Source of the DNA: an uncultured bacterium
GTDB lineage: Bacteria > Patescibacteriota > Minisyncoccia > UBA6257 > 2-01-FULL-56-20
Length of the DNA: 64,000 nt
Reading direction: 5' to 3'
Assembly (NCBI GenBank): GCA_963718575.1
Contig: OY970358.1
Coordinates: 514,172-578,171, forward strand
The translations under genes were made by a program, and so were the position numbers. Below the pieces are notes generated by a model. That model ran no database searches, had not been told where the DNA came from, and saw only the letters and a list, made by a program, of their open reading frames with translations. This document shows, one piece after another, positions 4,066-64,000 of the stretch (its first letter is position 1; each line of letters starts with the position of its first letter).

Positions 4066-5337
4066 TTAGATTGCGATATCCTCCTTATCATCGGCCTCCG
4101 GCGCCGCGATCTGATCGCCACCGGAACTCCCTGCATCAACGAGTCCCGCAACGCCTCCTTCCACTTCTTCCTCCGGCCGCGTCTGCGAACGCACGTCGAT
4201 CTTCCACCCCGTCAGCTTTGCCGCGAGCCGCACGTTCTGTCCACCCTTTCCGATCGCGAGCGAGAGCTGGCTCTCCGGCACATACGCCCGCGCCTCGCGT
4301 CGCGGAAGGATCTCCACCTTTTCAACCTTTGCCGGCGACAGTGCATTCGCGATGAACTTCTCCGGGTCGTCGGACCACTCCGCAATGTCAATCTTCTCGT
4401 TGCCAAGCTCGTTGTTCACCGCCATCACGCGCGTACCGCGCTGGCCCACCAACGCTCCCACCGGATCGACGCCTTCGGCCTTTGATGCCGCCGCGATCTT
4501 CGTACGGTTTCCCGGCTCGCGCGCGATCGCCTTGATCTCAATCGCATCCTCCACCAATTCAGGAACCTCCATACGGAAAAGTTCTGCCACAAATTTCGGA
4601 TGCGAGCGGGAAAGGATGATGCCCGGGAGGCGCGTATCCTCCTGCACGGCAACCACTAAAAATCGCAATCGCTCCCCCGCCCGATAGTGTTCGCCCGGAA
4701 TCGATTCGTTGGCGAACATCACGCCGATCGTGCGGCCGAGATCCACAAAAATATTTCCGCGCTCGAAGCGCTGGATCACGCCGCTCACGATCTGCCCTTC
4801 GCGTCCGCGCCACTCGTTCAAAATGGAATCACGTTCGGACTCGCGCAACTTTTGCAGGATCACCTGCTTTGCGGTCTGCGCCGCAATGCGTCCAAAATCC
4901 TCGTGTGTTTCAAGCGGGAACATCATCTCCTCTCCCAGCTCAACATCTTTTTTGATCTTCTTCGCTTCATCAAACGTGATGTGTCGATCAGGATTGAACC
5001 GTGGAAGCTTCTGCTCATCATCCTCTTCGACCACCTCTTCCTTTTTCTTGGCTCCGTCTTTTTTTTCGACGGCCGCGCTCTCAGCCACTGACACCTCCTC
5101 TTCCTCTTCGACGAAACGCACCGTCGTATCATCTACAACGGTTTTGATCTGCCAGAAGTTCAGCTCACCGGTTTTTTGATCCATCTTGCACTTCACAACC
5201 TCACCGCGCTCGCCGTATTCTTTTTTGTACGCCGCCGCAATGGACGACTCGATAACGTCAAGAACCTTATCCGGATCCAATCCTTTTTCTTCCGCAACCT
5301 GCTTTAACGCTTTTGATAATTCTTTTATATTCAACAT
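4066..5337 (-). CDS. nusA: transcription termination/antitermination factor NusA
   Basis: NusA N-terminal domain, S1 region and tandem KH region (LAIGKGGQNVRLAAKLTGWKIDV) recognisable. Has an acidic insert and a C-terminal Gly-rich tail. 423 aa. Confidence 0.88.
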   Translation of the reverse strand: MLNIKELSKALKQVAEEKGLDPDKVLDVIESSIAAAYKKEYGERGEVVKCKMDQKTGELNFWQIKTVVDDTTVRFVEEEEEVSVAESAAVEKKDGAKKKEEVVEEDDEQKLPRFNPDRHITFDEAKKIKKDVELGEEMMFPLETHEDFGRIAAQTAKQVILQKLRESERDSILNEWRGREGQIVSGVIQRFERGNIFVDLGRTIGVMFANESIPGEHYRAGERLRFLVVAVQEDTRLPGIILSRSHPKFVAELFRMEVPELVEDAIEIKAIAREPGNRTKIAAASKAEGVDPVGALVGQRGTRVMAVNNELGNEKIDIAEWSDDPEKFIANALSPAKVEKVEILPRREARAYVPESQLSLAIGKGGQNVRLAAKLTGWKIDVRSQTRPEEEVEGGVAGLVDAGSSGGDQIAAPEADDKEDIAI

Positions 5338-49984: not shown

Positions 49985-50056
49985 GCTCTCGTAGTTTAAT
50001 GGATAGAATATCTCCCTCCGAAGGAGGTGGTACAGGTTCGATTCCTGTCGAGAGCA
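49985..50056 (+). tRNA. tRNA-Arg (anticodon CCG)
   Basis: Manual fold: acceptor gctctcg/cgagagc (7 bp), D-loop with GG, anticodon stem tctcc/ggagg with loop cTCCGaa, T-stem acagg/cctgt with T-loop ttcgatt, discriminator A. Coordinates accurate to a few nt. Confidence 0.8.
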
Positions 50057-50275
50057 CAACGCAGTGAGACCAGACCGAGCAGGTAAATGCTACGTTTTTT
50101 GACGCACGTCAAACCGACCCCGCGTGGAAATCGAACTCGCAACAGTTTTTTGGGCACCCCGGTAGTGCGATCGAGCGAGTTTGGCTCCCGTAAGACAAGA
50201 TATGAGTTTTGATAGGTAGTTGGTTGAGGAAAGGTAGTTAAACTCTTTAAGAGAAAATAATCATATAATGGATAT

Positions 50276-52753: not shown

Positions 52754-52829
52754 TCGGCCGATTATAGGGAAAGCAGGAATAACTTAAAAAGTAGCGATTC
52801 AATATTATTGATTGCGGTATAATTTTCTC

Positions 52830-53471
52830 ATGGATAAACTCGCCGAATTAAAGAACATAGAAGCGGAGATGGCGGCGAATGTGTCGCTCCCGTTGCGCGA
52901 TACGGCGAACCTTGTTTTCGGCGAGGGAAATGTTGATTGCAAGGTGATGTTCATCGGCGAGGCGCCGGGCGTGAACGAGGATCGCCTGCGCCGGCCGTTC
53001 GTCGGTCGCGGCGGGCAACTGCTCGACGACATGATCCGCGGGCTTGGGTGGAAGCGCGAGGATGTCTATATCACGAATATCGTCAAGCGCCGGCCGCCGG
53101 AAAATCGCGACCCGTTACCCGCGGAGATCGAGGCGTACAAGCCGTACCTCACGCGGCAGATCGAGGTGATCGATCCGAAGCTGATCGTCACGCTCGGCCG
53201 CTTTTCGATGAACTATTTTTTGCCGTTCGCGAAGATCACGCACGACCACGGCCGGCCGTTGCTCGTCGACGGTCGGACGATCTTTCCAGTCTATCATCCC
53301 GCGGCGGCATTGCGCTCCACGCAGATGATGGAGACACTGCGCGGCGATTTCAAAAAGATCCCGAGCGTGCTCTCCGGCGAGTTCGGCGTGGTGGATCTGC
53401 CCCCGGCGTTTGCGGAGCCAAAGGCGGCGAGCGTTAAAAAGGAAAACCCCCGACAAGCAGGCCTTTTTTAA
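52830..53471 (+). CDS. uracil-DNA glycosylase, family 4
   Basis: Motif A GEAPG.NE...G.PFVGRGGQLL and motif B HPAAALR region characteristic of family-4 UDG. Confidence 0.85.
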   Translation: MDKLAELKNIEAEMAANVSLPLRDTANLVFGEGNVDCKVMFIGEAPGVNEDRLRRPFVGRGGQLLDDMIRGLGWKREDVYITNIVKRRPPENRDPLPAEIEAYKPYLTRQIEVIDPKLIVTLGRFSMNYFLPFAKITHDHGRPLLVDGRTIFPVYHPAAALRSTQMMETLRGDFKKIPSVLSGEFGVVDLPPAFAEPKAASVKKENPRQAGLF

Positions 53472-53507
53472 CGCCATACCGCGGCCATTTAGTGTTATTA
53501 TTATGGT

Positions 53508-53855
53508 ATGGATTTTTCGGTCGTCTATCTGATCCGGCGGTTTTTCTACCGGTTTTTGGATTTTTTTCATCATTGGTATATCGACGGCTCGCGCGCGTTC
53601 GGGCGGCGTTTTATGGCGACGCTCACGGCGGCGGATCAGTCGTTTGCGGTCGCGATAACCCTGCGCCATTTTTTTGAGCCGCTCTATAAGGATTACAGCA
53701 TGATCGGCAGGATCCTCGGGATTTTTTTCCGGACGGTGCGCGTCGTGATCGGCGGCGCATGCTATCTTGTCCTCGCGGCGGCGTTTGCCCTTGCATACCT
53801 TGTCTGGCTCGCCATCCCGGCCGTTATATTTTTCTATGCCGCAAAAAATATCTAA
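53508..53855 (+). CDS. small hypothetical membrane protein
   Basis: 115 aa, two hydrophobic segments. Overlaps the probable start of the downstream ClpB-like gene. Low confidence. Confidence 0.3.
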   Translation: MDFSVVYLIRRFFYRFLDFFHHWYIDGSRAFGRRFMATLTAADQSFAVAITLRHFFEPLYKDYSMIGRILGIFFRTVRVVIGGACYLVLAAAFALAYLVWLAIPAVIFFYAAKNI

Positions 53856-56379
53856 GTACGAATTTTATTTCAACGACTCGCGCCTGCGCATGACGATCGC
53901 GGGCAGGGCGTTGGTGCGCATTGTGAGCTATGTTTCCTATCTCGTGCTTTTCGTCGCGACATTCATGTTTTTATTGTCGGACGTAAAGCCGCTTTTCTTT
54001 GTCGGGCTATTTCTCTTTCTTGTGGTGATCGATCTTTTTGTCCATCGTAACGAAGGGGATACGCCGATCTCGGAGCTGTCGCCGGAAACGCACGGTGGAC
54101 GAGTGAACCTTGCGGAGGTGATGAACGGTCCTGCATTTGGCATCATTGAGCGTGCGGCGGATCGTAGTGCTATCACAAAAAAGAGCCTTCTCCTCGAGCT
54201 CACGCATCGCCTTTTTGAACTCCCGCAGATCGAGGACGGACTCCGGCGGCTGGATATAAAGCCGGAGGAATTCAAAGCGAAGCTCGAAACGTTGATGGCG
54301 GAGCCGGCGGCGAAGGGCGCCGCCGCGGGCCCGCCCGCCGTGCCGATAAATCCCCAAATGATCGTTGAGCCGCTCGCCGTGCATGCGTTCGCCTCTGCGG
54401 TGAGCGCCGGCCACGAATTCATCACGCCCGCCGACCTTTTCTCGGCGCTCCCGGCGATGGGCGATGAGGCGCTCGACCGGCTGTTCTCGCTCTTTAATAT
54501 AGAGGAGGGGGATCTTGAGCGCGCGCTCATCTTCAGCGCGCTCGCCGGACATCGCGGATTCTTTGCGCGGCTGCCGTCGGCGCTCGGCGGCTTCGCGCCG
54601 GTGACGTACCATGTGCGCGAGCATCGCATCATGAACCGCGCGTGGACGTCGCGCCCGACGCCGACGCTCGACAAGTACGGCATCGACTTCACCGACATGG
54701 CGCGGGATCGTGAAGTGGGATTCCTGATCGGGCACGAGGCGGAGTATGATCGGCTCGTGGAGACGCTCGCGCGTCCCACGAATCCGAATGCGTTGCTGAT
54801 CGGCGAGGCGGGGATCGGCAAGGAGACGATCATCCAGCACCTGGCATTCTGTTTGACGAAGGACGACGTGCCGAACGGGCTTTTCGACCGGCGGCTCGTG
54901 GGATTGCAGCTACAGAGCCTGATCGCCGGCGCGCCGCCGGAAGAGCTCGATGCGCGCATGAAGACGATCGTCGAGGAAATTTTCATGGCGGGAAACATCA
55001 TCCTCTACATTCCCGATATCCATAACCTTGTGCGCACATCGGGCGGCGCATATCTTTCCGCGGCGGATGCCCTGATGCCGGTCATCATGGCGAATCAGTT
55101 CCCGATCGTCGGCACGTCGTATCCAAAGGAATTCAAGCAGTTCATCGAGCCGCGCAGCGACTTCGCCGGCATGTTCGAATCGATCACGGTGAGCGAGATC
55201 TCGGAGGCGGATGCGGAAAAATTATTGACGTACGAAAGCTTTTTACTTGAACGAGCTTCACGGATCGAAGTGAGCTTTGGCGCCATCAAGCGTGCGGTCG
55301 TGTTGGCAAAAAAGTACTTGCGGGGCAAATATCTTCCGTCGAGCGCTGAGGATCTGTTGAAGAGCGCGATGGTGGATGCTGAGCGCCGCGGCGAGAAAAC
55401 GGTGACGCCGGATCGCGTGATGGCGGTGGCCGAAGAAAAGGTGAACATCCCGATGCACGAGGCGGAGGGCGACGAGGCGGCGAAATTATTGAACATGGAG
55501 GCGTTGATCCACGAGCGCGTCATCGGGCAGGACGAGGCGGTGAAGGCGGTCTCACAAGCGCTCCGCGAATATCGCAGCGGGCTTACGCGCAAAGGCGGCC
55601 CGATCGCGAGCTTCCTCTTTGTCGGTCCTACCGGTGTTGGAAAAACCGAGCTCGCGAAGGTATTGGCGGAGATCCAGTTCGGCTCGCAAAAAATGATGGT
55701 GCGATTCGACATGACGGAGTATCAGGACAAGACGAGCTTCTTCCGCTTCATCGGATCGCCTGACGGCACCGTGCGCGGCGCGCTCACTGACGCGGTGTTG
55801 GAAAAGCCCTACAGCCTGGTGCTGCTCGATGAATTCGAAAAGGCATATCCCGATATTTTGAATCTATTCCTGCAGGTGTTGGACGACGGGCGGCTCACCG
55901 ACAACATGGGCCGCGTGGTGGATTTTACGAACACGATCATCATCGCAACATCGAACGCGCATTCGGACATCATCAATGAGGCGCTCGCGAAGGGCGAGTC
56001 GATGGCGGATATCGCGGAATATTTAAAGGCGCGGCTGGTGGATGTGCTGAAACCGGAGCTGCTCAATCGCTTCTCAAAGATAATCGTGTTCAAGGACCTG
56101 GAGATGGACGAGTTGCCTCAGATCGTAAAGATCAATCTGAACGATCTTTGTTCCATCGCGAAGACCCAAGGGATCACGCTTTCATTCAGCGCCGAGGCGA
56201 TCGCGAAGATCGCCAAGCTCGGCTATAATCCGGCGTTCGGCGCGCGGCCGCTCCGGCGCGTGATCGACGAACACATCCGCGCGCCGCTCTCCGAAGCCCT
56301 GCTTGCGAAGAAGATCGCAAAGGGCGCGCGGGTCACCTGCGGCGTTAACGATGATGCATTCGAATTCGTGAACCAGTAG
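53836..56379 (+). CDS. ClpA/ClpB-family AAA+ ATPase with N-terminal two-TM anchor and degenerate first Walker A
   Basis: Second AAA module canonical (FVGPTGVGKTELAK, Walker B VLLDEFEKA, sensor 2). First module has GEAGIGKE (Lys-Glu instead of Lys-Thr/Ser). N-terminal ~70 aa contain two hydrophobic helices. Start placed at the internal Met MPQKISKY of track ORF 53767-56379. Confidence 0.75.
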   Translation: MPQKISKYEFYFNDSRLRMTIAGRALVRIVSYVSYLVLFVATFMFLLSDVKPLFFVGLFLFLVVIDLFVHRNEGDTPISELSPETHGGRVNLAEVMNGPAFGIIERAADRSAITKKSLLLELTHRLFELPQIEDGLRRLDIKPEEFKAKLETLMAEPAAKGAAAGPPAVPINPQMIVEPLAVHAFASAVSAGHEFITPADLFSALPAMGDEALDRLFSLFNIEEGDLERALIFSALAGHRGFFARLPSALGGFAPVTYHVREHRIMNRAWTSRPTPTLDKYGIDFTDMARDREVGFLIGHEAEYDRLVETLARPTNPNALLIGEAGIGKETIIQHLAFCLTKDDVPNGLFDRRLVGLQLQSLIAGAPPEELDARMKTIVEEIFMAGNIILYIPDIHNLVRTSGGAYLSAADALMPVIMANQFPIVGTSYPKEFKQFIEPRSDFAGMFESITVSEISEADAEKLLTYESFLLERASRIEVSFGAIKRAVVLAKKYLRGKYLPSSAEDLLKSAMVDAERRGEKTVTPDRVMAVAEEKVNIPMHEAEGDEAAKLLNMEALIHERVIGQDEAVKAVSQALREYRSGLTRKGGPIASFLFVGPTGVGKTELAKVLAEIQFGSQKMMVRFDMTEYQDKTSFFRFIGSPDGTVRGALTDAVLEKPYSLVLLDEFEKAYPDILNLFLQVLDDGRLTDNMGRVVDFTNTIIIATSNAHSDIINEALAKGESMADIAEYLKARLVDVLKPELLNRFSKIIVFKDLEMDELPQIVKINLNDLCSIAKTQGITLSFSAEAIAKIAKLGYNPAFGARPLRRVIDEHIRAPLSEALLAKKIAKGARVTCGVNDDAFEFVNQ

Positions 56380-56406
56380 CGAAATCAGTATAATAAAAAA
56401 ATACGC

Positions 56407-57084
56407 ATGCGCATCAAAGTAAACATCAATATCAAGGTCGGGCGGCTCGTAAAATATTTCGTAATCTCCGATTTTTTCCTGCTCGCCGGATGGGGCTTGA
56501 TCGATCCGGTGTTCTCGGTATTCATCATCCAGCGGGTGGTCGGCGGGACGCTCCTTACGGTCGGCATCGCTGCCGCGATCTATTGGATCCTCCGTTCGAT
56601 TCTGCAGATCCCCATCGCAAAACAGCTTGATGATATCCCCGGTGAGCACGATGATTTTATGGCGCTCATCGGCGGCCTCATGCTTATCGGCATCTCCGCG
56701 ATCGCGATGTGCTGGGTCACTCAGGTGTGGGAGCTCTATGCGATCCACGGGGTTCAAGCCGTTGCCTTTGCGCTCTACTATGCGTCGTGGCCGACGATCT
56801 TCTCGCGCCACTTGGACAAGGACAGTATCGCGCTCGACTGGTCGCTTGATTCGGCGGTCTCCGGCATCGGCGCCGGCGTCACCGGATTCCTCGGCGGCGT
56901 CATTGCCGGAACGCTCGGCTACGACGTGGTCTTTGTCTCCGCCGGTATTCTCGCGTTCATCGCCGCGTTCGTTCTCCTTGCCGTGCCGGATCTTATTCTG
57001 CCAAAGCCCGTTGCTATCACAAAAGCCGCCATCGTCGCCGCCGAAGAGGCGACCGAGCACAAGCCGGGAGGTACGGCTGCGTAA
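56407..57084 (+). CDS. six-TM MFS-like membrane protein (half-size)
   Basis: 225 aa with six hydrophobic helices resembling one MFS repeat. No room for a second half upstream. Confidence 0.45.
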   Translation: MRIKVNINIKVGRLVKYFVISDFFLLAGWGLIDPVFSVFIIQRVVGGTLLTVGIAAAIYWILRSILQIPIAKQLDDIPGEHDDFMALIGGLMLIGISAIAMCWVTQVWELYAIHGVQAVAFALYYASWPTIFSRHLDKDSIALDWSLDSAVSGIGAGVTGFLGGVIAGTLGYDVVFVSAGILAFIAAFVLLAVPDLILPKPVAITKAAIVAAEEATEHKPGGTAA

Positions 57085-57126
57085 AAAAAGAAAAAGGCGG
57101 ACTTCGGTGAGAAGTCCGCCTTTTGA
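57083..57126. terminator. bidirectional Rho-independent terminator (ggcggacttc ggtgag gaagtccgcc, A-run upstream, T-run downstream)
   Basis: Seen in sequence between convergent genes. Confidence 0.65.
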
Positions 57127-57146
57127 TCGGCGCCGGGGGAAGATCC

Positions 57147-57479
57147 TCAGGCGTAGATATTTATTTCTGGAAAACCCGCTTCCTCCCGCGGAACGTGGAT
57201 ACTGGTGATGTTTTTTTTGGGCAGCCCTTCGCAGTTCGGACAATAAGGCAAAGAGAATGTTTCGATTTTCTCTCCGTCCAGATATCGTGCCTCGATTTCT
57301 AACGGGTGAATGGTTGCGTAGCAGGTCGCCAATTGAATCCTGGCGCTGCATTCTGCGCAGATCCATTTTAGCGGCCACCACCCGACGAGCCGGTAGTGTC
57401 CTAAATAATAACTCCTGATTACTGCAATAAAGCCTTCCCGTGTCAATCCTTCCGGCGGAGCTTCCATGTTCTTCGCCAC
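57147..57479 (-). CDS. hypothetical protein with CxxC...CPNC zinc-ribbon-like motif
   Basis: 110-aa ORF in an otherwise gene-free gap, ending at the bidirectional terminator. Confidence 0.4.
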   Translation of the reverse strand: MAKNMEAPPEGLTREGFIAVIRSYYLGHYRLVGWWPLKWICAECSARIQLATCYATIHPLEIEARYLDGEKIETFSLPYCPNCEGLPKKNITSIHVPREEAGFPEINIYA

Positions 57480-57567
57480 CTTTCTTTTTATATTTTACAA
57501 ACTTATAGATAAATTGTCAAACAACCTCGTTCCTTCATCCGCCCACGAGTGGTGTTAGAATATAGTC

Positions 57568-59355
57568 ATGCCCGAGTCATCCAACCAATCCATCGCCGAA
57601 GTCCTGCGCCAGATCGGCGAGTATTTGGCGATGCAGCACGTGCAGTTCAAGCCACGCGCGTTCGAGAAAGCGGCGGAGACGGTGGGCGCGTTCGAGGAAG
57701 AGGTGGCGGAGACATATAAAAAAGGCGGCATCAAGGCACTCAAGGAAATTCCGGGCGTGGGCCAATCAATTGCGGAGATTATAGAGGAGCTTGTGACGAA
57801 GGGGCGCAGCACGGAATATGAAAAGTTGAAGAAGGCGACGCCGGTGCGCCTGGACGAGCTCGCGCGCGTGGAAGGTCTCGGGCCGAAATCGATCCAGAGA
57901 TTATATAAAGAGCTCGGGGTAAAAAATCTGAAAGACCTGGAGGCGGCGGCGAAGAAGGGGAAGATCGGCGCGCTCGAAGGTTTTGGAAAAAAGAGCGAGG
58001 AGAAAATTTTAAAAGGAATTGGATTCGCGAAAAGTTCCGGCGTGCGATTCATCACCGGGCTCATGTTGCCGCAGATCCGCGAGATCGAGGCGCGGCTTGC
58101 CGCCGTGCCGGGCGTCACGAAAGTGACCGTCGCCGGATCGGCGCGGCGGCGCAAGGAGACGATGGGCGATCTCGACATCCTCGCCGTCTCGGCGAAGCCC
58201 AAGCTCATCATGGATGAATTCGTTTCCAAAACGCCGGGCCTGATGACCGTCATCGCGAACGGGCCGACAAAGTCTTCCATAAAGATCAGGCCGGGGTTGA
58301 ATATCGATCTGCGCGTGGTGCCCGCAGAATCTTACGGCGCGGCGTTGAATTATTTCACCGGCTCCAAAGAACACAACGTCGTGATCCGTGCGCGCGCCAA
58401 TAGGCTGGGGTTGACGCTCAATGAGTACGGACTTTTCAAGATCACGGAAGGATCAACAAAGAAGGGCGCGGAGCAGGAGGGCGCGCGCATCGCGAGCCGG
58501 AGCGAGGAGGAGATTTATAAAGCGCTCAGGATGGCGTACGTGGAGCCGGAGCTTCGCGAGAATACCGGCGAGGTGGAGGCCGCGGTGCGGGAGTTCGAAA
58601 AGAAACCCGGCGGTCTGCCAAAATTGATCGGCTACAACGATCTTCAGGGCGATTTACAAGTGCAAACGAACTGGACTGACGGCAGTGATTCGATCGAAAC
58701 GATGGCGCTCGCCGCTATGAAGCGCGGCTTGAAATATATCGTGATCACCGATCACACCAAGCGTCTTGCGATGACGCACGGCCTCGACGAGAAGCGCATC
58801 CGCGATCAGTGGAAAGAGATCGATGCGGTGAACAAAAAACTGGGCGGGAAAATAAGAATATTGAAAGGCGCCGAGTGCGATATTTTGAAAGACGGCACGC
58901 TCGACCTCGATGACGAGACGCTTTCAAAACTGGATGTCGTCGGCGTGTCGGTGCACTCGTTCTTTAATCTTTCGCGCGCGGAGCAGACGGCGCGCGTAAC
59001 GCGGGCGATGTCGAATCCGAACGTCGACATTTTCTTCCATCCCACGGGCCGGCTCATCAACAAGCGCGCGCCGTATGACATCGACATCGACGAGGTCATC
59101 GCGACGGCAAAACATACCGGCACGATTTTAGAGATCGACGCGCTCCCGGAGCGGAGCGACCTTAAAGACGAATACATCCGCAAGTGCGTGGAGGCGGGCG
59201 TGAAGATGTCCATCGATTCCGATGCGCACGCCGCGGCGCACTTCGGCTTCCTCGAATGCGGCATCGCGCAGGCGCGCCGCGGCTGGGCGGAGAAGGAGGA
59301 TATCGTGAATGCGTGGCCGCTCGAGAAGATGTTGGGGTTTTTAAAGAAGAAATAG
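57568..59355 (+). CDS. polX: DNA polymerase X family protein with C-terminal PHP phosphoesterase domain
   Basis: Pol-beta-like N-terminal HhH and lyase region, nucleotidyltransferase core (GSARRRKETMGDLDIL), and a PHP domain (ITDHT...H...D...H). 595 aa. Confidence 0.88.
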   Translation: MPESSNQSIAEVLRQIGEYLAMQHVQFKPRAFEKAAETVGAFEEEVAETYKKGGIKALKEIPGVGQSIAEIIEELVTKGRSTEYEKLKKATPVRLDELARVEGLGPKSIQRLYKELGVKNLKDLEAAAKKGKIGALEGFGKKSEEKILKGIGFAKSSGVRFITGLMLPQIREIEARLAAVPGVTKVTVAGSARRRKETMGDLDILAVSAKPKLIMDEFVSKTPGLMTVIANGPTKSSIKIRPGLNIDLRVVPAESYGAALNYFTGSKEHNVVIRARANRLGLTLNEYGLFKITEGSTKKGAEQEGARIASRSEEEIYKALRMAYVEPELRENTGEVEAAVREFEKKPGGLPKLIGYNDLQGDLQVQTNWTDGSDSIETMALAAMKRGLKYIVITDHTKRLAMTHGLDEKRIRDQWKEIDAVNKKLGGKIRILKGAECDILKDGTLDLDDETLSKLDVVGVSVHSFFNLSRAEQTARVTRAMSNPNVDIFFHPTGRLINKRAPYDIDIDEVIATAKHTGTILEIDALPERSDLKDEYIRKCVEAGVKMSIDSDAHAAAHFGFLECGIAQARRGWAEKEDIVNAWPLEKMLGFLKKK

Positions 59356-59408
59356 TTTTCCCGCCATTAAATTTTGATTAACCCGGCCGGCAATGCTACA
59401 ATCTTTTC

Positions 59409-59963
59409 ATGCCGTCAGCCCGCGAAATAGACGAATCAAAGCGTATCCCAACCAAAAAACAGGTCGTGGCCGGCTTTGTGGTCTATCGCAAAACGAGCGA
59501 CGGAATAAAATTTTTACTGCTGTACCGGCGCGGCAATTATTGGAACTTCCCGAAAGGCCACTTCAAACCGGGCGAGCGCACGATCGACGTTGCGCTTCGC
59601 GAGCTGGAAGAAGAGACGGGGATCAAAAAGAGCGAGTTGCGTATGCTCCCGAACTTCCGCGCGTACGAACGTTTCTATTTTAAGATCGGCAATCAGGGGA
59701 TTTACGACACCGTCATTTTATTTTTGGCAGAGACGCATAAGGCGGATATCCGCATCGAACCGCGCGAGCATAGCGGGTATGGCTGGTTCCTCTATCACGA
59801 TGCGCTGAACGTGATCGGAAAAAAGTATGGCGATACGCGAAAGGTGTTGAAGCAGGCGAGCGACTACCTGAAGCCGCACAAGCGTCCGGCGGTGAAGGCC
59901 GGTGCCCCTGCGGTGCATACAGCGCAAAGCCCCGCGGTTGTAAAAGAGGTAAAAAGTCATTAA
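59409..59963 (+). CDS. NUDIX hydrolase
   Basis: Nudix box GHFKPGERTIDVALRELEEETGI (GX5EX7REUXEEXGU). Confidence 0.85.
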   Translation: MPSAREIDESKRIPTKKQVVAGFVVYRKTSDGIKFLLLYRRGNYWNFPKGHFKPGERTIDVALRELEEETGIKKSELRMLPNFRAYERFYFKIGNQGIYDTVILFLAETHKADIRIEPREHSGYGWFLYHDALNVIGKKYGDTRKVLKQASDYLKPHKRPAVKAGAPAVHTAQSPAVVKEVKSH

Positions 59964-60069
59964 CGACAAAAGGCGCCGCGCGTCGGAATCTATTATCTTT
60001 TAAAATCACAATTCGTGATTTTAAAAGATAGGATTTATGCAGGACATCATTGCCTGGGGCTTATGAGCA

Positions 60070-60108
60070 AAATAAAAACCTCCAGACTTTGGAGGTTTTT
60101 ATTTTTTG
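60070..60108. terminator. bidirectional Rho-independent terminator (aaaaacctccag acttt ggaggttttt)
   Basis: Seen in sequence between the NUDIX gene (+) and rplT (-). Confidence 0.65.
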
Positions 60109-60110
60109 AT

Positions 60111-60464
60111 CTACTTTGCCGATTTGGTTGCGGCAACCACTTTCTTGAACACCGCCGGTTCGTGCTCCGCGAGGTCCGCGAGGATCTTGCGATCGATCTT
60201 GATGCCTGCTTTCTTGAGCGCCGCGATGAATGTGCTGTAGTTCATCCCTTCGGGGCGGATGGCGGCGTTGATCTTGACGGTCCAGAGCTGGCGGAAGGTG
60301 CGCTTCTTTTCCTTGCGGCCGCGGAAAGCATGAACCCAGGCGTGAAGTAATGCCTCCTTGGCGGCGCGCTCCTTTGATTTGCGGCCCCATTTAAAACCCT
60401 TGGTGTATTTAAGGGTCTTCTCGCGATGCTTATGAGCGTTTACTCCTCTTTTTACGCGTGGCAT
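60111..60464 (-). CDS. rplT: 50S ribosomal protein L20
   Basis: MPRVKRGVNAHKHREKTLKYTKGF... canonical L20, 117 aa. Confidence 0.95.
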   Translation of the reverse strand: MPRVKRGVNAHKHREKTLKYTKGFKWGRKSKERAAKEALLHAWVHAFRGRKEKKRTFRQLWTVKINAAIRPEGMNYSTFIAALKKAGIKIDRKILADLAEHEPAVFKKVVAATKSAK

Positions 60465-60484
60465 GGTGGTGGTTTAACGGGAAA

Positions 60485-60655
60485 TTAATTATTCAAAATG
60501 GTTCGGAGCGGCATATCGAGCGAGCGCTTCTTGCGGGAATCACGGTTCATTTTACTGCTTTTGCGGGTCTTAAAATGGCCCACGCCTCCGCGCCGGCGAA
60601 CGATCTTTCCGTTCTTTGTGATCTTTATCCTCTTAGTTACGCTCTTGGAAGGCAT
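60485..60655 (-). CDS. rpmI: 50S ribosomal protein L35
   Basis: MPSKSVTKRIKITKNGKIVRRRGGVGHFKTRKS... canonical L35. Start is an internal Met of track ORF 60485-60682. Confidence 0.9.
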   Translation of the reverse strand: MPSKSVTKRIKITKNGKIVRRRGGVGHFKTRKSSKMNRDSRKKRSLDMPLRTILNN

Positions 60656-60727
60656 TTCAGTAAAAAGAGCCGGATGGCTCAATGACAGTAAGCTTACTAC
60701 AGCTTTTCCGGATTGGCAATACCCGGC

Positions 60728-61141
60728 TTATCTCTCCGAGTGGTCAACGATATTGATATTTTTAACAACCGCTCCGACCGCCTGAGCTAAACGTTTCCGC
60801 TTTGCCTTTAATTCAGCATATTTTTCAGCGGTGATATTTGTCTCGTCTTTGATAAGCTGCAATTTATTGACAATAAGCCTTAACGCCTCCCTCGCAGGCT
60901 CTCGTATCGGGTGATTCGGCGCTTCTTCCGGGGTGAGATCTGTGATGGCATTCAACGCTATAATGTCGTGGGTCTGCTCAAAATTTTCAAACATGCCTTC
61001 AAGCTCTTCGATTTCCGGCCCGGCTTCGCGGCGTTTTTCCGGCGGGATCTCTCCTGTCCCGTACTTCGCCATCCACGCGTCGATTATCTCCTGTTTTTCC
61101 TTGCTAAAACTCTCAATGGGCTTTTCAGGGTTTTCATTCAT
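60728..61141 (-). CDS. hypothetical acidic protein inserted between infC and rpmI
   Basis: 137-aa ORF, Glu/Pro-rich N-terminal half. No family assigned. Interrupts the usually contiguous infC-rpmI-rplT array. Confidence 0.45.
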   Translation of the reverse strand: MNENPEKPIESFSKEKQEIIDAWMAKYGTGEIPPEKRREAGPEIEELEGMFENFEQTHDIIALNAITDLTPEEAPNHPIREPAREALRLIVNKLQLIKDETNITAEKYAELKAKRKRLAQAVGAVVKNINIVDHSER

Positions 61142-61173
61142 GCTTTCATAGTACTCTTTAAGATTAAAATAAA

Positions 61174-61238
61174 ATACCCCTCCCTTTGAGCGAGTGGACG
61201 TTCCTACGTTGGAGCGAAAAGGGAGGGGTATTTTATTT
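61174..61238. repeat. copy 3 of conserved hairpin-embedded element (outer stem atacccctccctt/aagggaggggtat; core TGAGCGAGTGGACGTTCCTACGTTGGAGCGAAA) plus T-run, directly downstream of infC
   Basis: Seen in sequence. Confidence 0.65.
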
Positions 61239-61739
61239 CTTTGCGATCTGCACCGCCGGGCCGTTGCCCAAAAACTTCGGCTCGTTGAGCTTCTTATACT
61301 CCACGGGGATCAACGTTAAAAATTCCTTGAGCTTTTCCATTGCCCAATCCTTGTTGCGCTTCTCGCGGCCCCGAAGGCGCATGTTCACTTCCACGGGATG
61401 GCCCTGCGCGAAGAACTTTTCCACTTGCTTTACCTTGACCATGAGGTCGTTGTGCGCGGCTTTGGCGCTGATTTGCACGGACTTCATCGCTGCGGTCTTC
61501 TGCGCCGCGCGCTCCTTTTTAATCCGTTTTTCTTCCTCGTAGCGGAATTTATCGTAGCTCATCAGCCGCACGACGGGCGGTTTTGCTGCGGCGGAGATCT
61601 CTATGAGGTCGATGCCGTCGTCCGGGCGGGCGAGGGCAAGCGCGTCGGCGCGCGACATGACGCCAAGATTTTCTCCTGTTTCGCCAATGACGCGGAGTTC
61701 TGGAGCGGTTATTTGATTGTTGATGCGGGGTTTAATAAT
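61233..61739 (-). CDS. infC: translation initiation factor IF-3, probable non-AUG (ATT) start
   Basis: The C-terminal domain is clear in track ORF 61233-61658. The reading frame stays open upstream and encodes the conserved N-terminal IF3 sequence (IIKPRINNQITAPELRVIGETGENLGV). An in-frame ATT ATT sits at about 61734-61739. infC classically uses AUU for autoregulation. Confidence 0.8.
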   Translation of the reverse strand: MIKPRINNQITAPELRVIGETGENLGVMSRADALALARPDDGIDLIEISAAAKPPVVRLMSYDKFRYEEEKRIKKERAAQKTAAMKSVQISAKAAHNDLMVKVKQVEKFFAQGHPVEVNMRLRGREKRNKDWAMEKLKEFLTLIPVEYKKLNEPKFLGNGPAVQIAKK

Positions 61740-61804
61740 GCCTCTATTATATCAGCTGTGGTAGAATAATCAAAACGGTTGGGCCTGGTCCGACCATAAC
61801 GATC

Positions 61805-62398
61805 ATGGACGAAAATCCCATAACTCACCCGGGCGTGCCCGAAGAGGTCTATCATACGATGGGGAAGAAGACGTTTTGGATCTTTTTCCTGGAGCGTATT
61901 CATGCGGCGTTCATTTTACTTCTGCTTGCGATTGCGCTCTTTATCGTGAGCCGGCAGGCGTTCCTTGCGACGACGCAGTTCGGCGACCTTACGCGCTACG
62001 CCGTGGCCGCGTGGGAGCTCTGCGGGCTGCTCTTTGTCATCGTGCTTGCGATCTCGCTCTTTGTGGCATGGCTTGTCTACTCGACGTATAAATTTTCGCT
62101 CGGCGACGATTCGCTAAAAATAAAGCGCGGAATTTTAAACAAAGAAGAGGTGGCGATCCCGTACCGGCAGATCCAGGACGTGGACATCAAGCGCGATCTC
62201 TCGTTTCAGCTGATCGGGCTCAGTAAGATCATCATCATCACTGCGGGCCACGAAGAGGACGAAAAACCCGGCGACGATGACACGGAAGGCATCCTTCCCG
62301 CGCTCGACAAGGATCTTGCCGAATGGCTCCAGGCGGAATTACTCAAGCGCGCGAACGTGCAAAAGGTGACCGAAGAAGCTCCTGTGCTACAAAAATAA
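61805..62398 (+). CDS. membrane protein with bacterial PH (bPH_2 / YdbS-YdbT-like) domain
   Basis: Two-TM hairpin (FILLLLAIALFIV..., LLFVIVLAISLFVAWLV) followed by a bPH-like segment (YKFSLGDDSLKIKRGILNKEEVAIPYRQIQDVDIKRDLSFQLIGLSKI) and an acidic tail. Confidence 0.6.
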   Translation: MDENPITHPGVPEEVYHTMGKKTFWIFFLERIHAAFILLLLAIALFIVSRQAFLATTQFGDLTRYAVAAWELCGLLFVIVLAISLFVAWLVYSTYKFSLGDDSLKIKRGILNKEEVAIPYRQIQDVDIKRDLSFQLIGLSKIIIITAGHEEDEKPGDDDTEGILPALDKDLAEWLQAELLKRANVQKVTEEAPVLQK

Positions 62399-62468
62399 AA
62401 ACCCCATTGCCGTTGAGCGAGTGGACGTTCTTACGTCGGAGCGAAACAGGGATGGGGTTTTTATTTTA
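62393..62468. repeat. copy 4 of conserved hairpin-embedded element (outer stem aaaaccccat.../...atggggtttt; core TGAGCGAGTGGACGTTCTTACGTCGGAGCGAAA) plus T-run, between convergent genes
   Basis: Seen in sequence. Confidence 0.65.
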
Positions 62469-62675
62469 TTTACTGCAGCAGCCGCACCGGACCATCTTTG
62501 CGCATCCAAGGATGATCAAGAGGATCGGCCACGTGACGGCGACGAATCCCGCCGTCAACGCGCCGGTCGCTCCCAGGAGGAAGTCGAGGCCGATGAGGAC
62601 GAGCATGATCGGCAATACTTTGTGGTGAGGGCAGTTGCACATTGGGCCCTTGCCGACTATCTTTGTTTCTTCCAT
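62466..62675 (-). CDS. small Cys-rich membrane protein (hypothetical)
   Basis: 69 aa. One TM helix flanked by CNCPHH and a C-terminal CGCCSK. Ends inside the copy-4 terminator element. Confidence 0.35.
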   Translation of the reverse strand: MEETKIVGKGPMCNCPHHKVLPIMLVLIGLDFLLGATGALTAGFVAVTWPILLIILGCAKMVRCGCCSK

Positions 62676-62739
62676 AAAAAATTAAAAATCGATAAAATTT
62701 ATTATTTCGACCTTTGATCGCATTCTTGTACTCTTTTAT

Positions 62740-62765
62740 TTTACCATTATTTGTGCTATAATAGC
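62740..62765 (+). promoter_or_regulatory. extended -10 promoter candidate for tmRNA (tgcTATAAT)
   Basis: Seen in sequence about 15-20 nt upstream of the predicted mature tmRNA 5' end. -35 weak. Confidence 0.3.
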
Positions 62766-62779
62766 GGCAGCCTTATCGA

Positions 62780-63097
62780 AGGGAGCGCACTGGCTTCGAT
62801 AGAGATAATCCATGGGTTTGCGAGCCGTTGGCAACGCCGTAACCGTTGCACAACCTATAACTGCCAACTCTAACGTTGCAGCTCCGAGGGCTTTCGCTTT
62901 CGCGTAACCTCTCGGGATCGGCTAGCTTGGGTTCCTTAGGCTAATACCGGTCTTATATAAGGGGACTAGCGTCAGGTTGACGATCATACGCCCGGCGCGA
63001 AAATATGATCACTTCGCTTAGCCTCGCTAAACTACGCTCGTAGACGGCCCATCGGCATTATCTTTACACGGCGGTTCGATTCCGCCCGCTTCCACAC
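62780..63097 (+). ncRNA. ssrA: transfer-messenger RNA (tmRNA, SsrA), standard one-piece form
   Basis: tRNA-like 3' end: T-arm ggcgg-ttcgatt-ccgcc, then acceptor strand cgcttcc that pairs with the 5' gggagcg. Internal tag ORF ...GCC AAC TCT AAC GTT GCA GCT CCG AGG GCT TTC GCT TTC GCG TAA encodes roughly ANSNVAAPRAFAFA*. Ends accurate to a few nt. Confidence 0.75.
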
Positions 63098-63998
63098 CCT
63101 GTGATTTAGAGGTAGCAAAATGCTCAAAAACCCTTAAAGGAAGGCACAAAGGAGCGGTTCTAAATCCAAATCCTCGGTCATAGAAAACGAGACCCTCAAA
63201 AACGAGGTTCAGCACCATATTTTTTTCGCTCAAATCGCCCTCAATCCACTTGTTATATGGGTCTTTTAGATAATCGAATACCATTTGCAGGGCGGTTCTA
63301 AATTCGATTCTCGGCTTCTTTGCGGGATCGTTTTTCTCCGTTAGCTTTTCCTCTTTCGCCGCCAGCTCCTCAATCTGTTTCTCATATTCCCGACGAACGC
63401 GCTCACTGGTCGCTCTCCGTGCCAGCTTTGAGAGGTCGCGTATCTCCGTCTGAATCCCCGCGATTTCGCCAGTCTCCCTCTTTTCGCCATCGGCCCGCTC
63501 TGCCACGCGCTTTTCCCATTTTTCGTAGAGCATCGCTTCGCTGATTTTGAGAACAAGAGGCTTCGGACGGATTTCCTGCAACATGGTCCTGAATTGTGTT
63601 TCTATAAGCTCAACAGGAATGCTCTTAGTGTGTTCGGGGCATGCAGTATTGGCACAACGATAATACGGCCGCCTATAACCCTTTTTCTTAGTCGTATATG
63701 AAGCAGTAAAAGGCCGTCCACAATTGCCACAGGCGATCTGCGTATGGCGCAAAGGGAAGTCCTCGCGCATGTCCGCTCTCGTCCTTACCGGACTGCGGCC
63801 TTCAATTTTTCGCAAAATCTTTTGGTAAGTTGCTAGGTCAATGAGTGGCTGATGATGGCCCTGTCGCCGTACTACCTCCCACGGCTCATATTGGATAAAT
63901 CCGGCATATATCCATACCCTCGCCAATAAGCGATTCGCCAACTGGAAGGGTACTTTGCTTTTGCCGATGAAGTCTTGCTCTCCTAAATAGCGAGCCAT
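63027..63998 (-). CDS. large serine recombinase, C-terminal ~320 aa (recombinase domain end, zinc beta-ribbon, coiled-coil); gene continues beyond window end
   Basis: Zinc ribbon CGNCGRPFTASYTTKKKGYRRPYYRCANTACPEH, followed by a long coiled-coil. This is the typical large serine recombinase (phage integrase type) architecture. The final ~23 codons overlap the tmRNA 3' end. Confidence 0.75.
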   Translation of the reverse strand: MARYLGEQDFIGKSKVPFQLANRLLARVWIYAGFIQYEPWEVVRRQGHHQPLIDLATYQKILRKIEGRSPVRTRADMREDFPLRHTQIACGNCGRPFTASYTTKKKGYRRPYYRCANTACPEHTKSIPVELIETQFRTMLQEIRPKPLVLKISEAMLYEKWEKRVAERADGEKRETGEIAGIQTEIRDLSKLARRATSERVRREYEKQIEELAAKEEKLTEKNDPAKKPRIEFRTALQMVFDYLKDPYNKWIEGDLSEKNMVLNLVFEGLVFYDRGFGFRTAPLCLPLRVFEHFATSKSQGVEAGGIEPPCKDNADGPSTSVV

Positions 63999-64000
63999 GT
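63075..64000. mobile_element. edge of integrated element (prophage or integrative element) inserted at the tmRNA 3' end; extends past window
   Basis: A recombinase gene abuts and overlaps the 3' end of ssrA, a classic integration site. Element extent unknown. Confidence 0.5.

What the first reader, a model, noticed from the sequence alone, without database searches (positions are those of the whole stretch)
62780..64000. tmRNA gene with an overlapping large serine recombinase: edge of an integrated mobile element
A one-piece tmRNA is identified by its tRNA-like ends and an internal tag ORF ending ...AFAFA*. On the opposite strand, the last ~23 codons of a large serine recombinase (zinc-ribbon plus coiled-coil C-terminal half; N-terminus beyond the window) overlap the tmRNA 3' end.

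Established knowledge: ssrA 3' ends are frequent attachment sites. Integrases often overlap and regenerate the target RNA gene's 3' end. Serine (rather than tyrosine) recombinases at ssrA are less common. The tag peptide sequence is also atypical.
Basis: partly seen in the sequence, partly recalled or inferred. Interest (0 to 1): 0.6.

Follow-up and report, generated by a model that had tools for sequence, protein, structure and literature searches.

The report
Self-splitting serine integrase at tmRNA
The window ends at the left edge of a small mobile element inserted at the last few bases of a Parcubacteria tmRNA gene; in close relatives the insertion cuts the element's own serine-integrase gene, swapping its last ~30 codons for antisense tmRNA sequence, and the window's junction matches that pattern, a design reviewed as exclusive to archaeal tyrosine integrases and only hinted at in Dehalococcoides.

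Summary
Both observations hold. A one-piece tmRNA lies at 62781-63097 (+) (Rfam 105 bits; tag ANSNVAAPRAFAFA*). On the minus strand, the C-terminal 323 aa of a 527-aa large serine recombinase (LSR) ends at a stop codon (63027-63029) inside the tmRNA.

Conspecific metagenome contigs, 99.9-100% identical, diverge exactly at 63096/63097 and run straight into chromosomal genes. That is an empty site, so this is a real, polymorphic insertion.

No long repeat regenerates the tmRNA. In six relatives, three free-form contigs (two apparently circular) and the empty site, the only sequence shared by attL, attR, attP and attB is 5 bp (TCCAC, window 63091-63095).

attP lies inside the LSR reading frame. 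Free-form contigs encode an uninterrupted LSR ending in a conserved tail (VDMVxKSWNxLESF...). In integrated copies this tail sits as an orphan segment at the far end, and the LSR body reads into antisense tmRNA, giving a Gly/Pro-rich tail predicted to be disordered.

The closest precedent is Dehalococcoides ssrA islands (DsiB); the analogue is archaeal "suicidal" tyrosine integrases.

The window's own far end could not be retrieved. Whether the tail swap has any function is inference.

The parts
62781..63097 (+). tmRNA gene (ssrA), one-piece, intact
   Evidence: ARAGORN; Rfam RF00023 at 105 bits, model positions 1-374
62863..62907 (+). tmRNA tag reading frame: GCC AAC TCT AAC GTT GCA GCT CCG AGG GCT TTC GCT TTC GCG TAA = ANSNVAAPRAFAFA*
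   Evidence: ARAGORN coding part 83-127 of the gene; sequence read
63060..63090 (.). B arm of attL: host tmRNA T-arm and acceptor 3' strand, identical in the empty site
   Evidence: blastn identity with L001/L003 up to 63096; att alignment
63091..63095 (.). Common core TCCAC (GTGGA in recombinase sense). It covers the last 3 nt of the acceptor stem, discriminator A63094 and one more base. It is the only sequence shared by attL, attR, attP and attB, so strand exchange must occur within it.
   Evidence: Invariant in 7 attL, 7 attR, 3 observed attP and 1 observed attB. The window-versus-empty-site break is at 63096/63097.
63096..63127 (.). P arm of attL, the left end of the element. It also encodes ...EHFATSKSQG of the recombinase and is conserved among relatives.
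   Evidence: the window arm ttgagcattttgctacctctaaatcacagggt is identical to that of L035 and near-identical to L006, L041 and L042
63027..63095 (-). Host-encoded tail of the integrated-form recombinase, (G)VEAGGIEPPCKDNADGPSTSVV plus the TAG stop. This is antisense tmRNA, not element DNA.
   Evidence: Translation; identical DNA in the empty site; AlphaFold pLDDT below 50 with no secondary structure for residues 497-527 of P0001
63096..64000 (-). Element-encoded body of the large serine recombinase, residues 205 to about 505 of 527. The N-terminal catalytic domain lies beyond the window; the predicted start is near 64610.
63582..63737 (-). Zinc-ribbon domain of the recombinase
   Evidence: Pfam PF13408, residues 88-139 of the 323-aa fragment, E = 1.4e-7
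63333..63560 (-). Coiled-coil insertion, two long antiparallel helices
   Evidence: AlphaFold model of P0001: helices 351-399 and 403-426; the same in P0012
63097..64000 (.). Left-most ~0.9 kb of the integrated element. The remainder, expected to be about 5-7 kb by analogy with relatives, lies beyond the window.
   Evidence: Homology break; element sizes in relatives

Best explanation
The window ends at attL of a small integrative element inserted at the extreme 3' end of the tmRNA gene of a Parcubacteria (CPR) bacterium.

The element is moved by a large serine recombinase (LSR) whose attP site lies inside its own reading frame, about 30 codons before the true stop. In the free circular form the ORF is uninterrupted. 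It ends in a flexible linker encoded by the att core, followed by a conserved helical tail (VDMVxKSWNxLESFIFxWGE...).

Recombination with attB takes place within a 5-bp core, TCCAC, at window 63091-63095. This core spans the end of the tmRNA acceptor stem, the discriminator base and one more base. The mature tmRNA sequence is therefore left unchanged and only its 3' trailer is replaced.

Integration splits the recombinase gene. The tail codons move to the far end of the element, next to attR. The catalytic, DNA-binding and coiled-coil body is fused to antisense tmRNA, giving the 22-residue Gly/Pro-rich tail seen in the window. Excision rebuilds the full gene.

Shown by computation:
- the tmRNA;
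- the insertion polymorphism;
- the core;
- the split and restored gene in relatives;
- purifying selection on the tail.

Inferred:
- that the window's own unseen far end carries the orphan tail;
- that this LSR is the enzyme that does the recombination;
- that the tail swap, together with head-on transcription from ssrA, changes the enzyme's activity or level after integration. I put that last point at about 0.35.
For: Empty site:
- Contigs L001 and L003 are 99.95-100% identical to the window up to 63096, then continue directly into chromosomal genes.
- Contig L002 ends exactly at 63096.

Free form:
- L042 (8.5 kb, 30-bp terminal overlap) and L043 (12.4 kb, 55-bp terminal overlap) carry the LSR with no tRNA or tmRNA after it.
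- Their ORFs continue in frame into ...SWNxLESF... tails.

Integrated relatives:
- Every integrated tmRNA locus with enough flank (L006, L007, L008, L009, L035-37, L041) has an orphan segment encoding that same tail.
- The segment lies on the LSR strand, 5.3-7.4 kb upstream.

att sites:
- The core GTGGA is invariant.
- The P and P' arms are conserved, the B arm is tmRNA, and the B' arm varies.
- Reconstructed attP sequences match the observed attP of L042.
- The host flank next to attR in L035 is orthologous to the flank that directly follows the tmRNA in the empty site: local alignment score 52 against a shuffle maximum of 33.

Tail:
- All 8 copies keep the reading frame; seven are 30-32 codons long and one is 43.
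- Pooled pN/pS is 0.43. In codons 10-29, pS is 0.61 and pN is 0.27.
- AlphaFold gives a helix at 516-539 (pLDDT 53-72) after a low-confidence linker in the free form P0012.
- In the integrated form P0001, residues 497-527 are coil with pLDDT below 50.

Family scale: at least 1523 homologues, and 77% of full-length ones end in T-arm-antisense peptide.
Against: - The window's own far end was not seen. The 881-kb source contig could not be fetched, and the metagenome scan did not return it.
- No experiment shows recombination by this enzyme.
- A dyad-symmetry scan did not single out a central dinucleotide within the core.
- The B' half of attB is not conserved between species. That is unusual for LSR attB sites.
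- The tail helix is modelled with only moderate confidence, and nothing shows it contacts the rest of the protein. It could be dispensable.
- The circularity of L042 and L043 rests on terminal overlaps alone.
- L006 shows extra scars: a second tail copy and a 16-bp tmRNA-end repeat. Arrays can therefore be messy, and my first reading of that locus was wrong.
Confidence: 0.8

Rival explanations
1. One reading: a classical tDNA island. The element's attP carries a copy of the tmRNA 3' segment (about 63027-63097) that regenerates the gene. The whole recombinase ORF is element DNA, and a displaced ~70-nt repeat marks the other end.
For: [quoted passage not shown] With only attL and attB in hand, identity up to 63096 cannot by itself place the crossover. 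L006 has a 16-bp repeat of the tmRNA terminus.
Against: No repeat of the segment occurs in the 10-kb flanks of any relative. The attR sites found carry only GTGGA, followed by unrelated conserved tail codons. Free-form contigs have attP with the same 5-bp core and no tmRNA-like sequence beyond it. The 16-bp repeat in L006 lies outside two tail-bearing attR copies, so it is a separate scar.
Confidence: 0.04
2. The anatomy is the same, but the tail swap has no consequence. attP simply overlaps the 3' end of a compact int gene, the last 30 residues are dispensable, and both enzyme forms work equally well.
For: C-terminal extremities of LSRs are variable. AlphaFold places the tail on a low-confidence tether and does not pack it against the protein. 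Elements are polymorphic and free forms exist, so the integrated-form enzyme presumably still excises. McMurdie et al. also thought the ssrA-encoded part unlikely to be functional.
Against: The tail's frame, length and sequence are kept in 8 of 8 close copies, and in about nine more distant free-form proteins 43-52% identical to P0012. Synonymous sites are near saturation while amino acids are conserved, including beyond the likely reach of a DNA-binding half-site. That argues the tail is translated and matters in the free form.
Confidence: 0.4
3. In this genome the element is a fixed, decaying remnant, or the recombinase is a domesticated chromosomal gene next to ssrA. It is no longer mobile.
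For: Only 0.9 kb of the element is visible. Tandem scars exist in L006, and L041 has a frameshifted LSR.
Against: The ORF is open over all 323 visible codons and the database protein is a full 527 aa. Presence and absence occur between contigs 99.9-100% identical in their flanks, and an assembly breaks exactly at the junction. That points to a recent or ongoing insertion or excision.
Confidence: 0.1

Closest known systems
Dehalococcoides ssrA-specific genomic islands with the serine recombinase DsiB (McMurdie et al. 2011, PMC3146451)
   Same: A ~530-540-aa large serine recombinase distantly related to CcrB. It lies next to attL on the strand opposite ssrA. Its ORF runs across attL with about 70 nt of overlap with the ssrA 3' end, and no stop codon occurs inside the element. 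The islands are small, lack transfer genes, and form tandem arrays and scars.
   Different: [quoted passage not shown] Here the core is 5 bp at the end of the acceptor stem.
- The six-gene DsiA/RecF/ParB/Mom integration module is absent from the close relatives.
- The hosts are Patescibacteria.
- The paper only speculated that the gene might be complete in the circular form. Here the completed ORF and the conserved displaced tail are observed.
- Sequence orthology to DsiB could not be tested.
Archaeal SSV-type 'suicidal' tyrosine integrases (SSV1, pTN3, pT26-2; PMC8371274, PMC7253208)
   Same: attP lies inside the integrase ORF. The target is a tRNA-type gene. Integration partitions the integrase gene, and excision restores it. 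The result is a compact int-plus-att module.
   Different: They belong to the unrelated tyrosine recombinase family and occur in archaeal hosts. Their split separates an N-terminal part from the catalytic part and yields two inactive pseudogenes. Here only the last ~30 of ~537 residues are displaced, and all recognised domains stay in one ORF. The 2021 review states that such self-disrupting recombinases occur only in archaea.
SCCmec CcrA/CcrB/CcrC cassette chromosome recombinases
   Same: Large serine recombinases that insert small non-conjugative cassettes at the 3' end of a single-copy housekeeping gene through a short core. CcrB is among the best NCBIfam hits.
   Different: Scores are far below the family cutoff (72-99 bits against 900). 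The target there is the protein gene rlmH, the ccr genes are internal to the cassette, and integration does not cut them (own knowledge).
[quoted passage not shown]
   Same: They use the tmRNA or tRNA 3' end as the attachment site, with the integrase gene adjacent to the intact RNA gene.
   Different: The recombinase family differs. There is no displaced tDNA fragment and no regeneration of the gene by the element. Islander states that serine-family integrases were not known to target tDNAs.
Integration-dependent immunity of mycobacteriophages such as BPs and Brujita (Broussard et al. 2013; own knowledge, not checked here)
   Same: attP lies inside a phage ORF, so integration changes that protein's C-terminus and with it its behaviour.
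   Different: There the cut gene is the repressor and the integrase is a tyrosine recombinase. A functional consequence is demonstrated there but not here.

Membership tests
tmRNA (Rfam RF00023) | Covariance-model score at or above the gathering threshold over the full model | tested here: met
   105 bits against 47, model positions 1-374, E = 5e-40; ARAGORN agrees
tmRNA (Rfam RF00023) | tRNA-Ala-like domain: acceptor stem with G3.U70, T-arm, discriminator A | tested here: met
   Read from the sequence: GGGAGCG / CGCTTCC with G62783.T63091, GGCGG-TTCGATT-CCGCC, A63094. CCA is not encoded.
tmRNA (Rfam RF00023) | Internal tag frame starting at an Ala resume codon and ending at a stop | tested here: met
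   62863-62907, ANSNVAAPRAFAFA*; similar tags in relatives
Large serine recombinase (serine integrase) | N-terminal resolvase catalytic domain with the Ser nucleophile | tested here: met
   Outside the window but present in the 100%-identical P0001: PF00239, invariant R11 and S13, matches to the TP901-1 and gamma-delta catalytic domains
Large serine recombinase (serine integrase) | Recombinase domain (PF07508) after the catalytic domain | tested here: inconclusive
   Not reported for P0001 or for the window fragment. Reported for many homologues. The model shows a folded alpha/beta region there.
Large serine recombinase (serine integrase) | Zinc-ribbon domain with an inserted coiled coil | tested here: met
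   PF13408, E = 1.4e-7, in the window; long helical hairpin at 351-426
Large serine recombinase (serine integrase) | Short att sites sharing only a small core around a 2-bp crossover | tested here: inconclusive
   A 5-bp common core was found. The crossover dinucleotide was not identified and the symmetry scan was flat.
DsiB-type ssrA genomic island (Dehalococcoides) | Serine recombinase next to attL, opposite strand, with its ORF crossing attL into about 70 nt of ssrA | tested here: met
   69-71 nt overlap; description in PMC3146451
DsiB-type ssrA genomic island (Dehalococcoides) | [quoted passage not shown] | tested here: not met
   Only the 5-bp TCCAC is shared, and it lies at the acceptor end. 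A lone 16-bp repeat in L006 is a separate scar.
DsiB-type ssrA genomic island (Dehalococcoides) | Syntenic integration module (DsiA small recombinase, RecF-like, ParB, Mom, ~700-aa protein) | tested here: not met
   Absent from L006, L035, L041 and L042. ParB and a second recombinase occur only in the more distant L043/L044.
DsiB-type ssrA genomic island (Dehalococcoides) | Sequence orthology to DsiB | not testable with these tools
   No DsiB sequence was available. Only weak CcrB and XisF similarity was found.
Self-splitting ('suicidal') integrases, SSV type | attP inside the integrase ORF, with the gene partitioned by integration and restored by excision | tested here: met
   Met in close relatives and inferred for the window: uninterrupted ORF in free-form contigs, orphan tail at attR in integrated loci
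Self-splitting ('suicidal') integrases, SSV type | Tyrosine recombinase of the Phage_integr_3 type, archaeal host | tested here: not met
   Serine recombinase domains; bacterial CPR hosts
Self-splitting ('suicidal') integrases, SSV type | Split products are inactive | not tested
   This needs biochemistry. Here all recognised domains remain in one ORF.
Classical tDNA island (Islander signature) | Intact tDNA plus a displaced tDNA fragment at the far end, with a tyrosine integrase | tested here: not met
   No fragment in relatives; the integrase is of the serine family

The most novel reading that the evidence does not exclude
This is the visible tip of a large, cross-phylum clade of serine integrases that specialise in the 3' ends of tRNA and tmRNA genes. 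They carry attP inside their own ORF, so integration exchanges a functional C-terminal helix for antisense-RNA-gene sequence.

On this reading the exchange acts as a built-in switch. The full-length enzyme made by the free element drives integration. The tail-swapped enzyme has its mRNA 3' end complementary to the abundant tmRNA and meets head-on transcription from ssrA. It is therefore down-regulated or altered in directionality, which stabilises the integrated state until the conserved small upstream ORFs (candidate directionality factors) act.

That would be a bacterial, serine-family counterpart of archaeal 'suicidal' integrases. It would also overturn the statement that serine integrases do not use tDNA targets.
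Probability: 0.3. Interest if true: 0.8.

Novelty: new variant of a known kind. Interest (0 to 1): 0.6.

Why it matters
1. Mobile elements of CPR/Patescibacteria are barely described. This work defines a family with exact ends, both att forms and a minimal integration module.

2. It gives sequence-level proof, in relatives, for something only guessed at in Dehalococcoides. The serine integrase gene is completed in the circular form and cut on integration, and the displaced piece is under purifying selection.

3. It contradicts two statements in the literature. One is that serine integrases are not known to target tRNA or tmRNA genes (PMC4383910). The other is that self-disrupting recombinases are exclusive to archaea (PMC8371274).

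4. There is a practical consequence. About three quarters of the deposited protein sequences of this family end in a peptide that is just antisense tRNA or tmRNA. Anyone mining these integrases as genome-engineering tools from integrated copies would clone the wrong C-terminus and the wrong att sites.

5. The attB is tiny and sits on a universally conserved RNA end, which is attractive for broad-host integration tools.

Tried and rejected
- **Fetching the window's own continuation.** Exact look-up of P0001 found nothing on record. The look-up with the bPH_2 gene did not return the 881-kb contig. The metagenome scan gave only relatives. Cluster members gave sister species only.

- **Long direct repeat of the tmRNA 3' segment.** None was found in any locus. 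Only a 16-bp repeat turned up, in L006. I first took it as attR of an 8.35-kb element. I rejected that once two tail-bearing attR copies were found inside it.

- **tRNA half-fragments after the LSR in L013 and L028.** I considered these as possible LSR attP sites with 47-48 nt of identity. I rejected that because each is followed by a DUF4102-type tyrosine integrase gene, so they are tandem tyrosine-integrase islands inserted at the anticodon loop.

- **Dyad symmetry around the core, to pin down the crossover dinucleotide.** No peak at the core.

- **Far junction of the proteobacterial tRNA-targeting relatives.** Candidate 'TGGTGG + conserved peptide' sites proved to be internal to a conserved element. 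This remains unresolved.

- **Promoter and terminator scan of 62400-64000.** Counts were at chance level.

- **Helical hydrophobic moment of the tail.** Significant only for two distant tails, not for the close ones. Weak support at best.

- **Direct homology test against DsiB.** Impossible without a sequence. NCBIfam gives only sub-threshold CcrB and XisF hits, and PDB hits cover only the catalytic domain.

- **IMG/VR scan.** Only three distant proteobacterial hits, none informative for attP.
Full report
**1. Observation**

ARAGORN finds a tmRNA at 62781-63095 (+) with tag ANSNVAAPRAFAFA*. Rfam RF00023 matches 62781-63097 over the whole model at 105 bits, against a gathering score of 47.

Reading the sequence directly:
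- The acceptor stem is GGGAGCG / CGCTTCC and includes the G3.U wobble.
- The T-arm is GGCGG-TTCGATT-CCGCC.
- The discriminator is A63094.
- CCA is not encoded.

On the minus strand, the frame entering at 63998 stays open down to the TAG at 63027-63029. It carries a recombinase zinc ribbon (Pfam PF13408). It is 100% identical to the C-terminal 323 residues of a 527-aa database protein, P0001, which has a Resolvase domain.

The last 22 sense codons and the stop lie inside the tmRNA gene.

**2. It is an insertion, and the junction is exact**

An exact look-up of the neighbouring bPH_2 gene returned other metagenome contigs of the same organism.
- L001 and L003 are 99.95% and 100% identical to the window up to 63096, then diverge completely.
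- L002 ends at exactly that base.
- Past the junction, L001 and L003 read GGGTCTTATATAAACACAG... and run into ordinary chromosomal genes: a membrane protein, adh_short, Nramp and a cold-shock protein.

These contigs show the empty site. The 69 nt of recombinase ORF that overlap the tmRNA are thus present in genomes that lack the element. They are host DNA.

**3. The overlap is a family trait**

Homologues of the fragment nearly all end in ...GVE.GGIEPP..., which is a T-arm read backwards.

A scan of one genome per species gave 18 loci.
- In Parcubacteria and Saccharibacteria the recombinase converges on, and overlaps, a tmRNA.
- In Nitrosomonas and other Proteobacteria it overlaps tRNA-Phe, tRNA-Leu or tRNA-Arg.
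- Metagenome loci add tRNA-Thr.

A profile search found at least 1523 homologues. Of 136 full-length members, 105 have a T-loop-antisense tetrapeptide in the last 45 residues, against 16% of control windows.

**4. Where the other end is**

Searching for a repeat of the tmRNA 3' segment gave nothing except a 16-bp repeat in L006. I first misread that repeat as attR.

The clue came from the minority of family members that lack the T-arm tail. They share a different, conserved tail...VDMVxKSWNxLESFIFxWGE....
- Their contigs have no tRNA or tmRNA after the gene.
- Two of them have terminal overlaps typical of circular assemblies: L042 (8,509 bp, 30-bp overlap) and L043 (12,376 bp, 55-bp overlap).
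- They carry replication or partition genes, or defence-like cargo.

A six-frame motif scan then found the same tail as an orphan segment in every integrated tmRNA locus with enough flank. It lies on the recombinase's strand, 5.3-7.4 kb upstream:

| Locus | Position of orphan tail |
|---|---|
| L006 | 5125, with a second copy at 4152 |
| L007 | 4601 |
| L008 | 6189 |
| L009 | 5293 |
| L035-37 | 4148 |
| L041 | 3368 |

**5. att sites**

I aligned seven attL, seven attR, three observed attP and the observed attB.
- The core GTGGA (TCCAC in tmRNA sense, window 63091-63095) is invariant.
- The P arm is conserved. It also encodes ...EHFATSKSQG.
- The P' arm is conserved. It is the first tail codons.
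- The B arm is the tmRNA.
- The B' arm differs between species.
- attP sequences reconstructed from attL and attR match the attP observed on L042.

In L035, the host flank next to attR is orthologous to the flank that directly follows the tmRNA in the empty site L001. The local alignment score is 52, against a shuffle maximum of 33. This closes the reconstruction across species.

Strand exchange therefore happens within five bases at the very end of the tmRNA. The mature tmRNA sequence is untouched. Nothing needs to be regenerated, and no long repeat exists.

**6. The tail is a real piece of protein**
- All eight close copies keep the frame. Seven are 30-32 codons long and one is 43.
- Pooled pN/pS is 0.43.
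- In codons 10-29, beyond the likely reach of a DNA half-site, pS is 0.61 and pN is 0.27.
- More distant free-form proteins keep the same pattern.
- AlphaFold models the free form P0012 well (mean pLDDT 88.9). The core-encoded residues 504-514 form a low-confidence linker, followed by a helix at 516-539 with pLDDT 53-72.
- In the integrated form P0001, residues 497-527 are coil with pLDDT below 50. The host-encoded tail within that stretch is 27% Gly+Pro.

**7. Mechanism**

Shown by computation:
- An intact tmRNA.
- A polymorphic insertion at its last bases.
- An integrase ORF interrupted by its own att site in integrated copies and continuous in free copies.
- A 5-bp core.

Inferred:
- The window's element has the same far end.
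- This enzyme performs the recombination.
- The swap matters. After integration the enzyme keeps its catalytic, DNA-binding and coiled-coil parts, so excision remains possible. It loses a selected helix, and its gene now ends head-on in a strongly transcribed RNA gene.

I put about 0.35 on this being a regulatory or directionality device and about 0.4 on it being neutral.

Two conserved small ORFs directly upstream of the integrase are the obvious candidates for a directionality factor.

**8. Comparison with what is known**

[quoted passage not shown] The authors speculated that it might be complete only on the circle. That is the same kind of element. It differs as follows:
- a 20-bp repeat;
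- a T-loop insertion point;
- a six-gene integration module.

*Archaeal SSV-type tyrosine integrases.* These are the functional analogue. A 2021 review says self-disrupting recombinases occur only in archaea.

*Islander.* This paper states that serine integrases are not known to target tDNAs.

NCBIfam and PDB give only distant CcrB, XisF and catalytic-domain similarity. Orthology to DsiB could not be tested.

**9. Verdict**

The 'edge of a mobile element' reading is supported. The proposed regenerate-and-repeat mechanism is not.

What is there is a new variant of a known but obscure kind. It has a cleanly resolved self-splitting integrase gene and a family reach far wider than reported.

The main gap is that the window's own far end, and any experimental activity, remain unseen.

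Noticed in passing
L014, L021, L031 (tRNA-Phe); L015, L022, L023 (tRNA-Leu); L016, L020 (tRNA-Arg); L027, L029, L030, L033 (tRNA-Thr): Relatives about 40% identical, in Proteobacteria including cultured Nitrosomonas marina and N. aestuarii, overlap the 3' end of ordinary tRNA genes by 32-71 nt in the same convergent way. Serine integrases were said not to target tRNA genes.
   Followed up: partly
L021 6631-11520, L022 6602-11520, L013 6594-11542, L014 426-5617: A block of about 4.9 kb (7 kb between L022 and L013) containing the recombinase is 80-83% identical across Nitrosomonas, a Burkholderiales MAG and an alphaproteobacterial MAG. It sits at tRNA-Phe in some and tRNA-Leu in another, which suggests loose target choice beyond the CCA/acceptor end. 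The far junction was not resolved.
   Followed up: partly
L013 11497-11545 and 11701 onward; L028 1960-2007 and about 2170 onward: The recombinase is followed by only the 3' 47-48 nt of a tRNA, then a DUF4102-type tyrosine integrase gene. A tyrosine-integrase island has inserted at the anticodon loop of the same tRNA, giving mixed tandem arrays.
   Followed up: yes
L006 3164-3179, 4152-4285, 5125-5257: There are two copies of the orphan tail segment about 1 kb apart, plus a 16-bp repeat of the tmRNA terminus further out. These look like scars of earlier elements, as in the tandem ssrA islands of Dehalococcoides.
   Followed up: partly
About 330 nt upstream of the recombinase start in L006-L009, L024, L035, L041, L042, L045, L012, L026 (beyond 64610 in window terms): Two conserved small ORFs. 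ORF-A is MLSLEQLRKIDEENQLSDQELLELRDALDPILERILNRYF, present in all tmRNA-type loci. ORF-B is the basic MDKKTISKVMREMGRRGG...KARRRKKNKK, present in the closest ones. Neither has a Pfam match. They are candidate directionality factors or regulators.
   Followed up: partly
L035 4318-9211; L041 3590-5670; L042 2680-7129; L043 1063-8287: Cargo differs completely between elements and looks defence- or addiction-like: AAA_14 ATPase plus an HpaII-type restriction-modification system with Vsr; Fic; DUF3800 and a TIR-like protein; a Ser/Thr kinase with a primase-helicase and ParB. No capsid or conjugation genes were seen.
   Followed up: partly
window 62863-62907; tmRNAs of L008, L009, L035, L041: Tags ending in AFAFA, SFAFV or LAYA are the norm in this Parcubacteria group. 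By my own recollection they resemble the ...YAFA tags of Mollicutes that are read by Lon rather than ClpXP. ARAGORN picked implausible tag frames for L006 and L007.
   Followed up: no
P0001 and most of P0002-P0145: Deposited protein sequences of this family include the antisense-tRNA/tmRNA-encoded tail as if it were part of the protein. This is a systematic annotation artefact for anyone cloning these integrases.
   Followed up: yes
window 50276-62717: The tmRNA's upstream neighbourhood is ordinary and syntenic in sister species: P-type ATPase, UDG, ClpB-like AAA+, MFS, PolX-PHP, NUDIX, L20, IF3, a bPH_2 membrane protein and a small LiaF-TM-like protein. tRNA-Arg(ccg) at 49985-50057 has no integrase next to it.
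   Followed up: no
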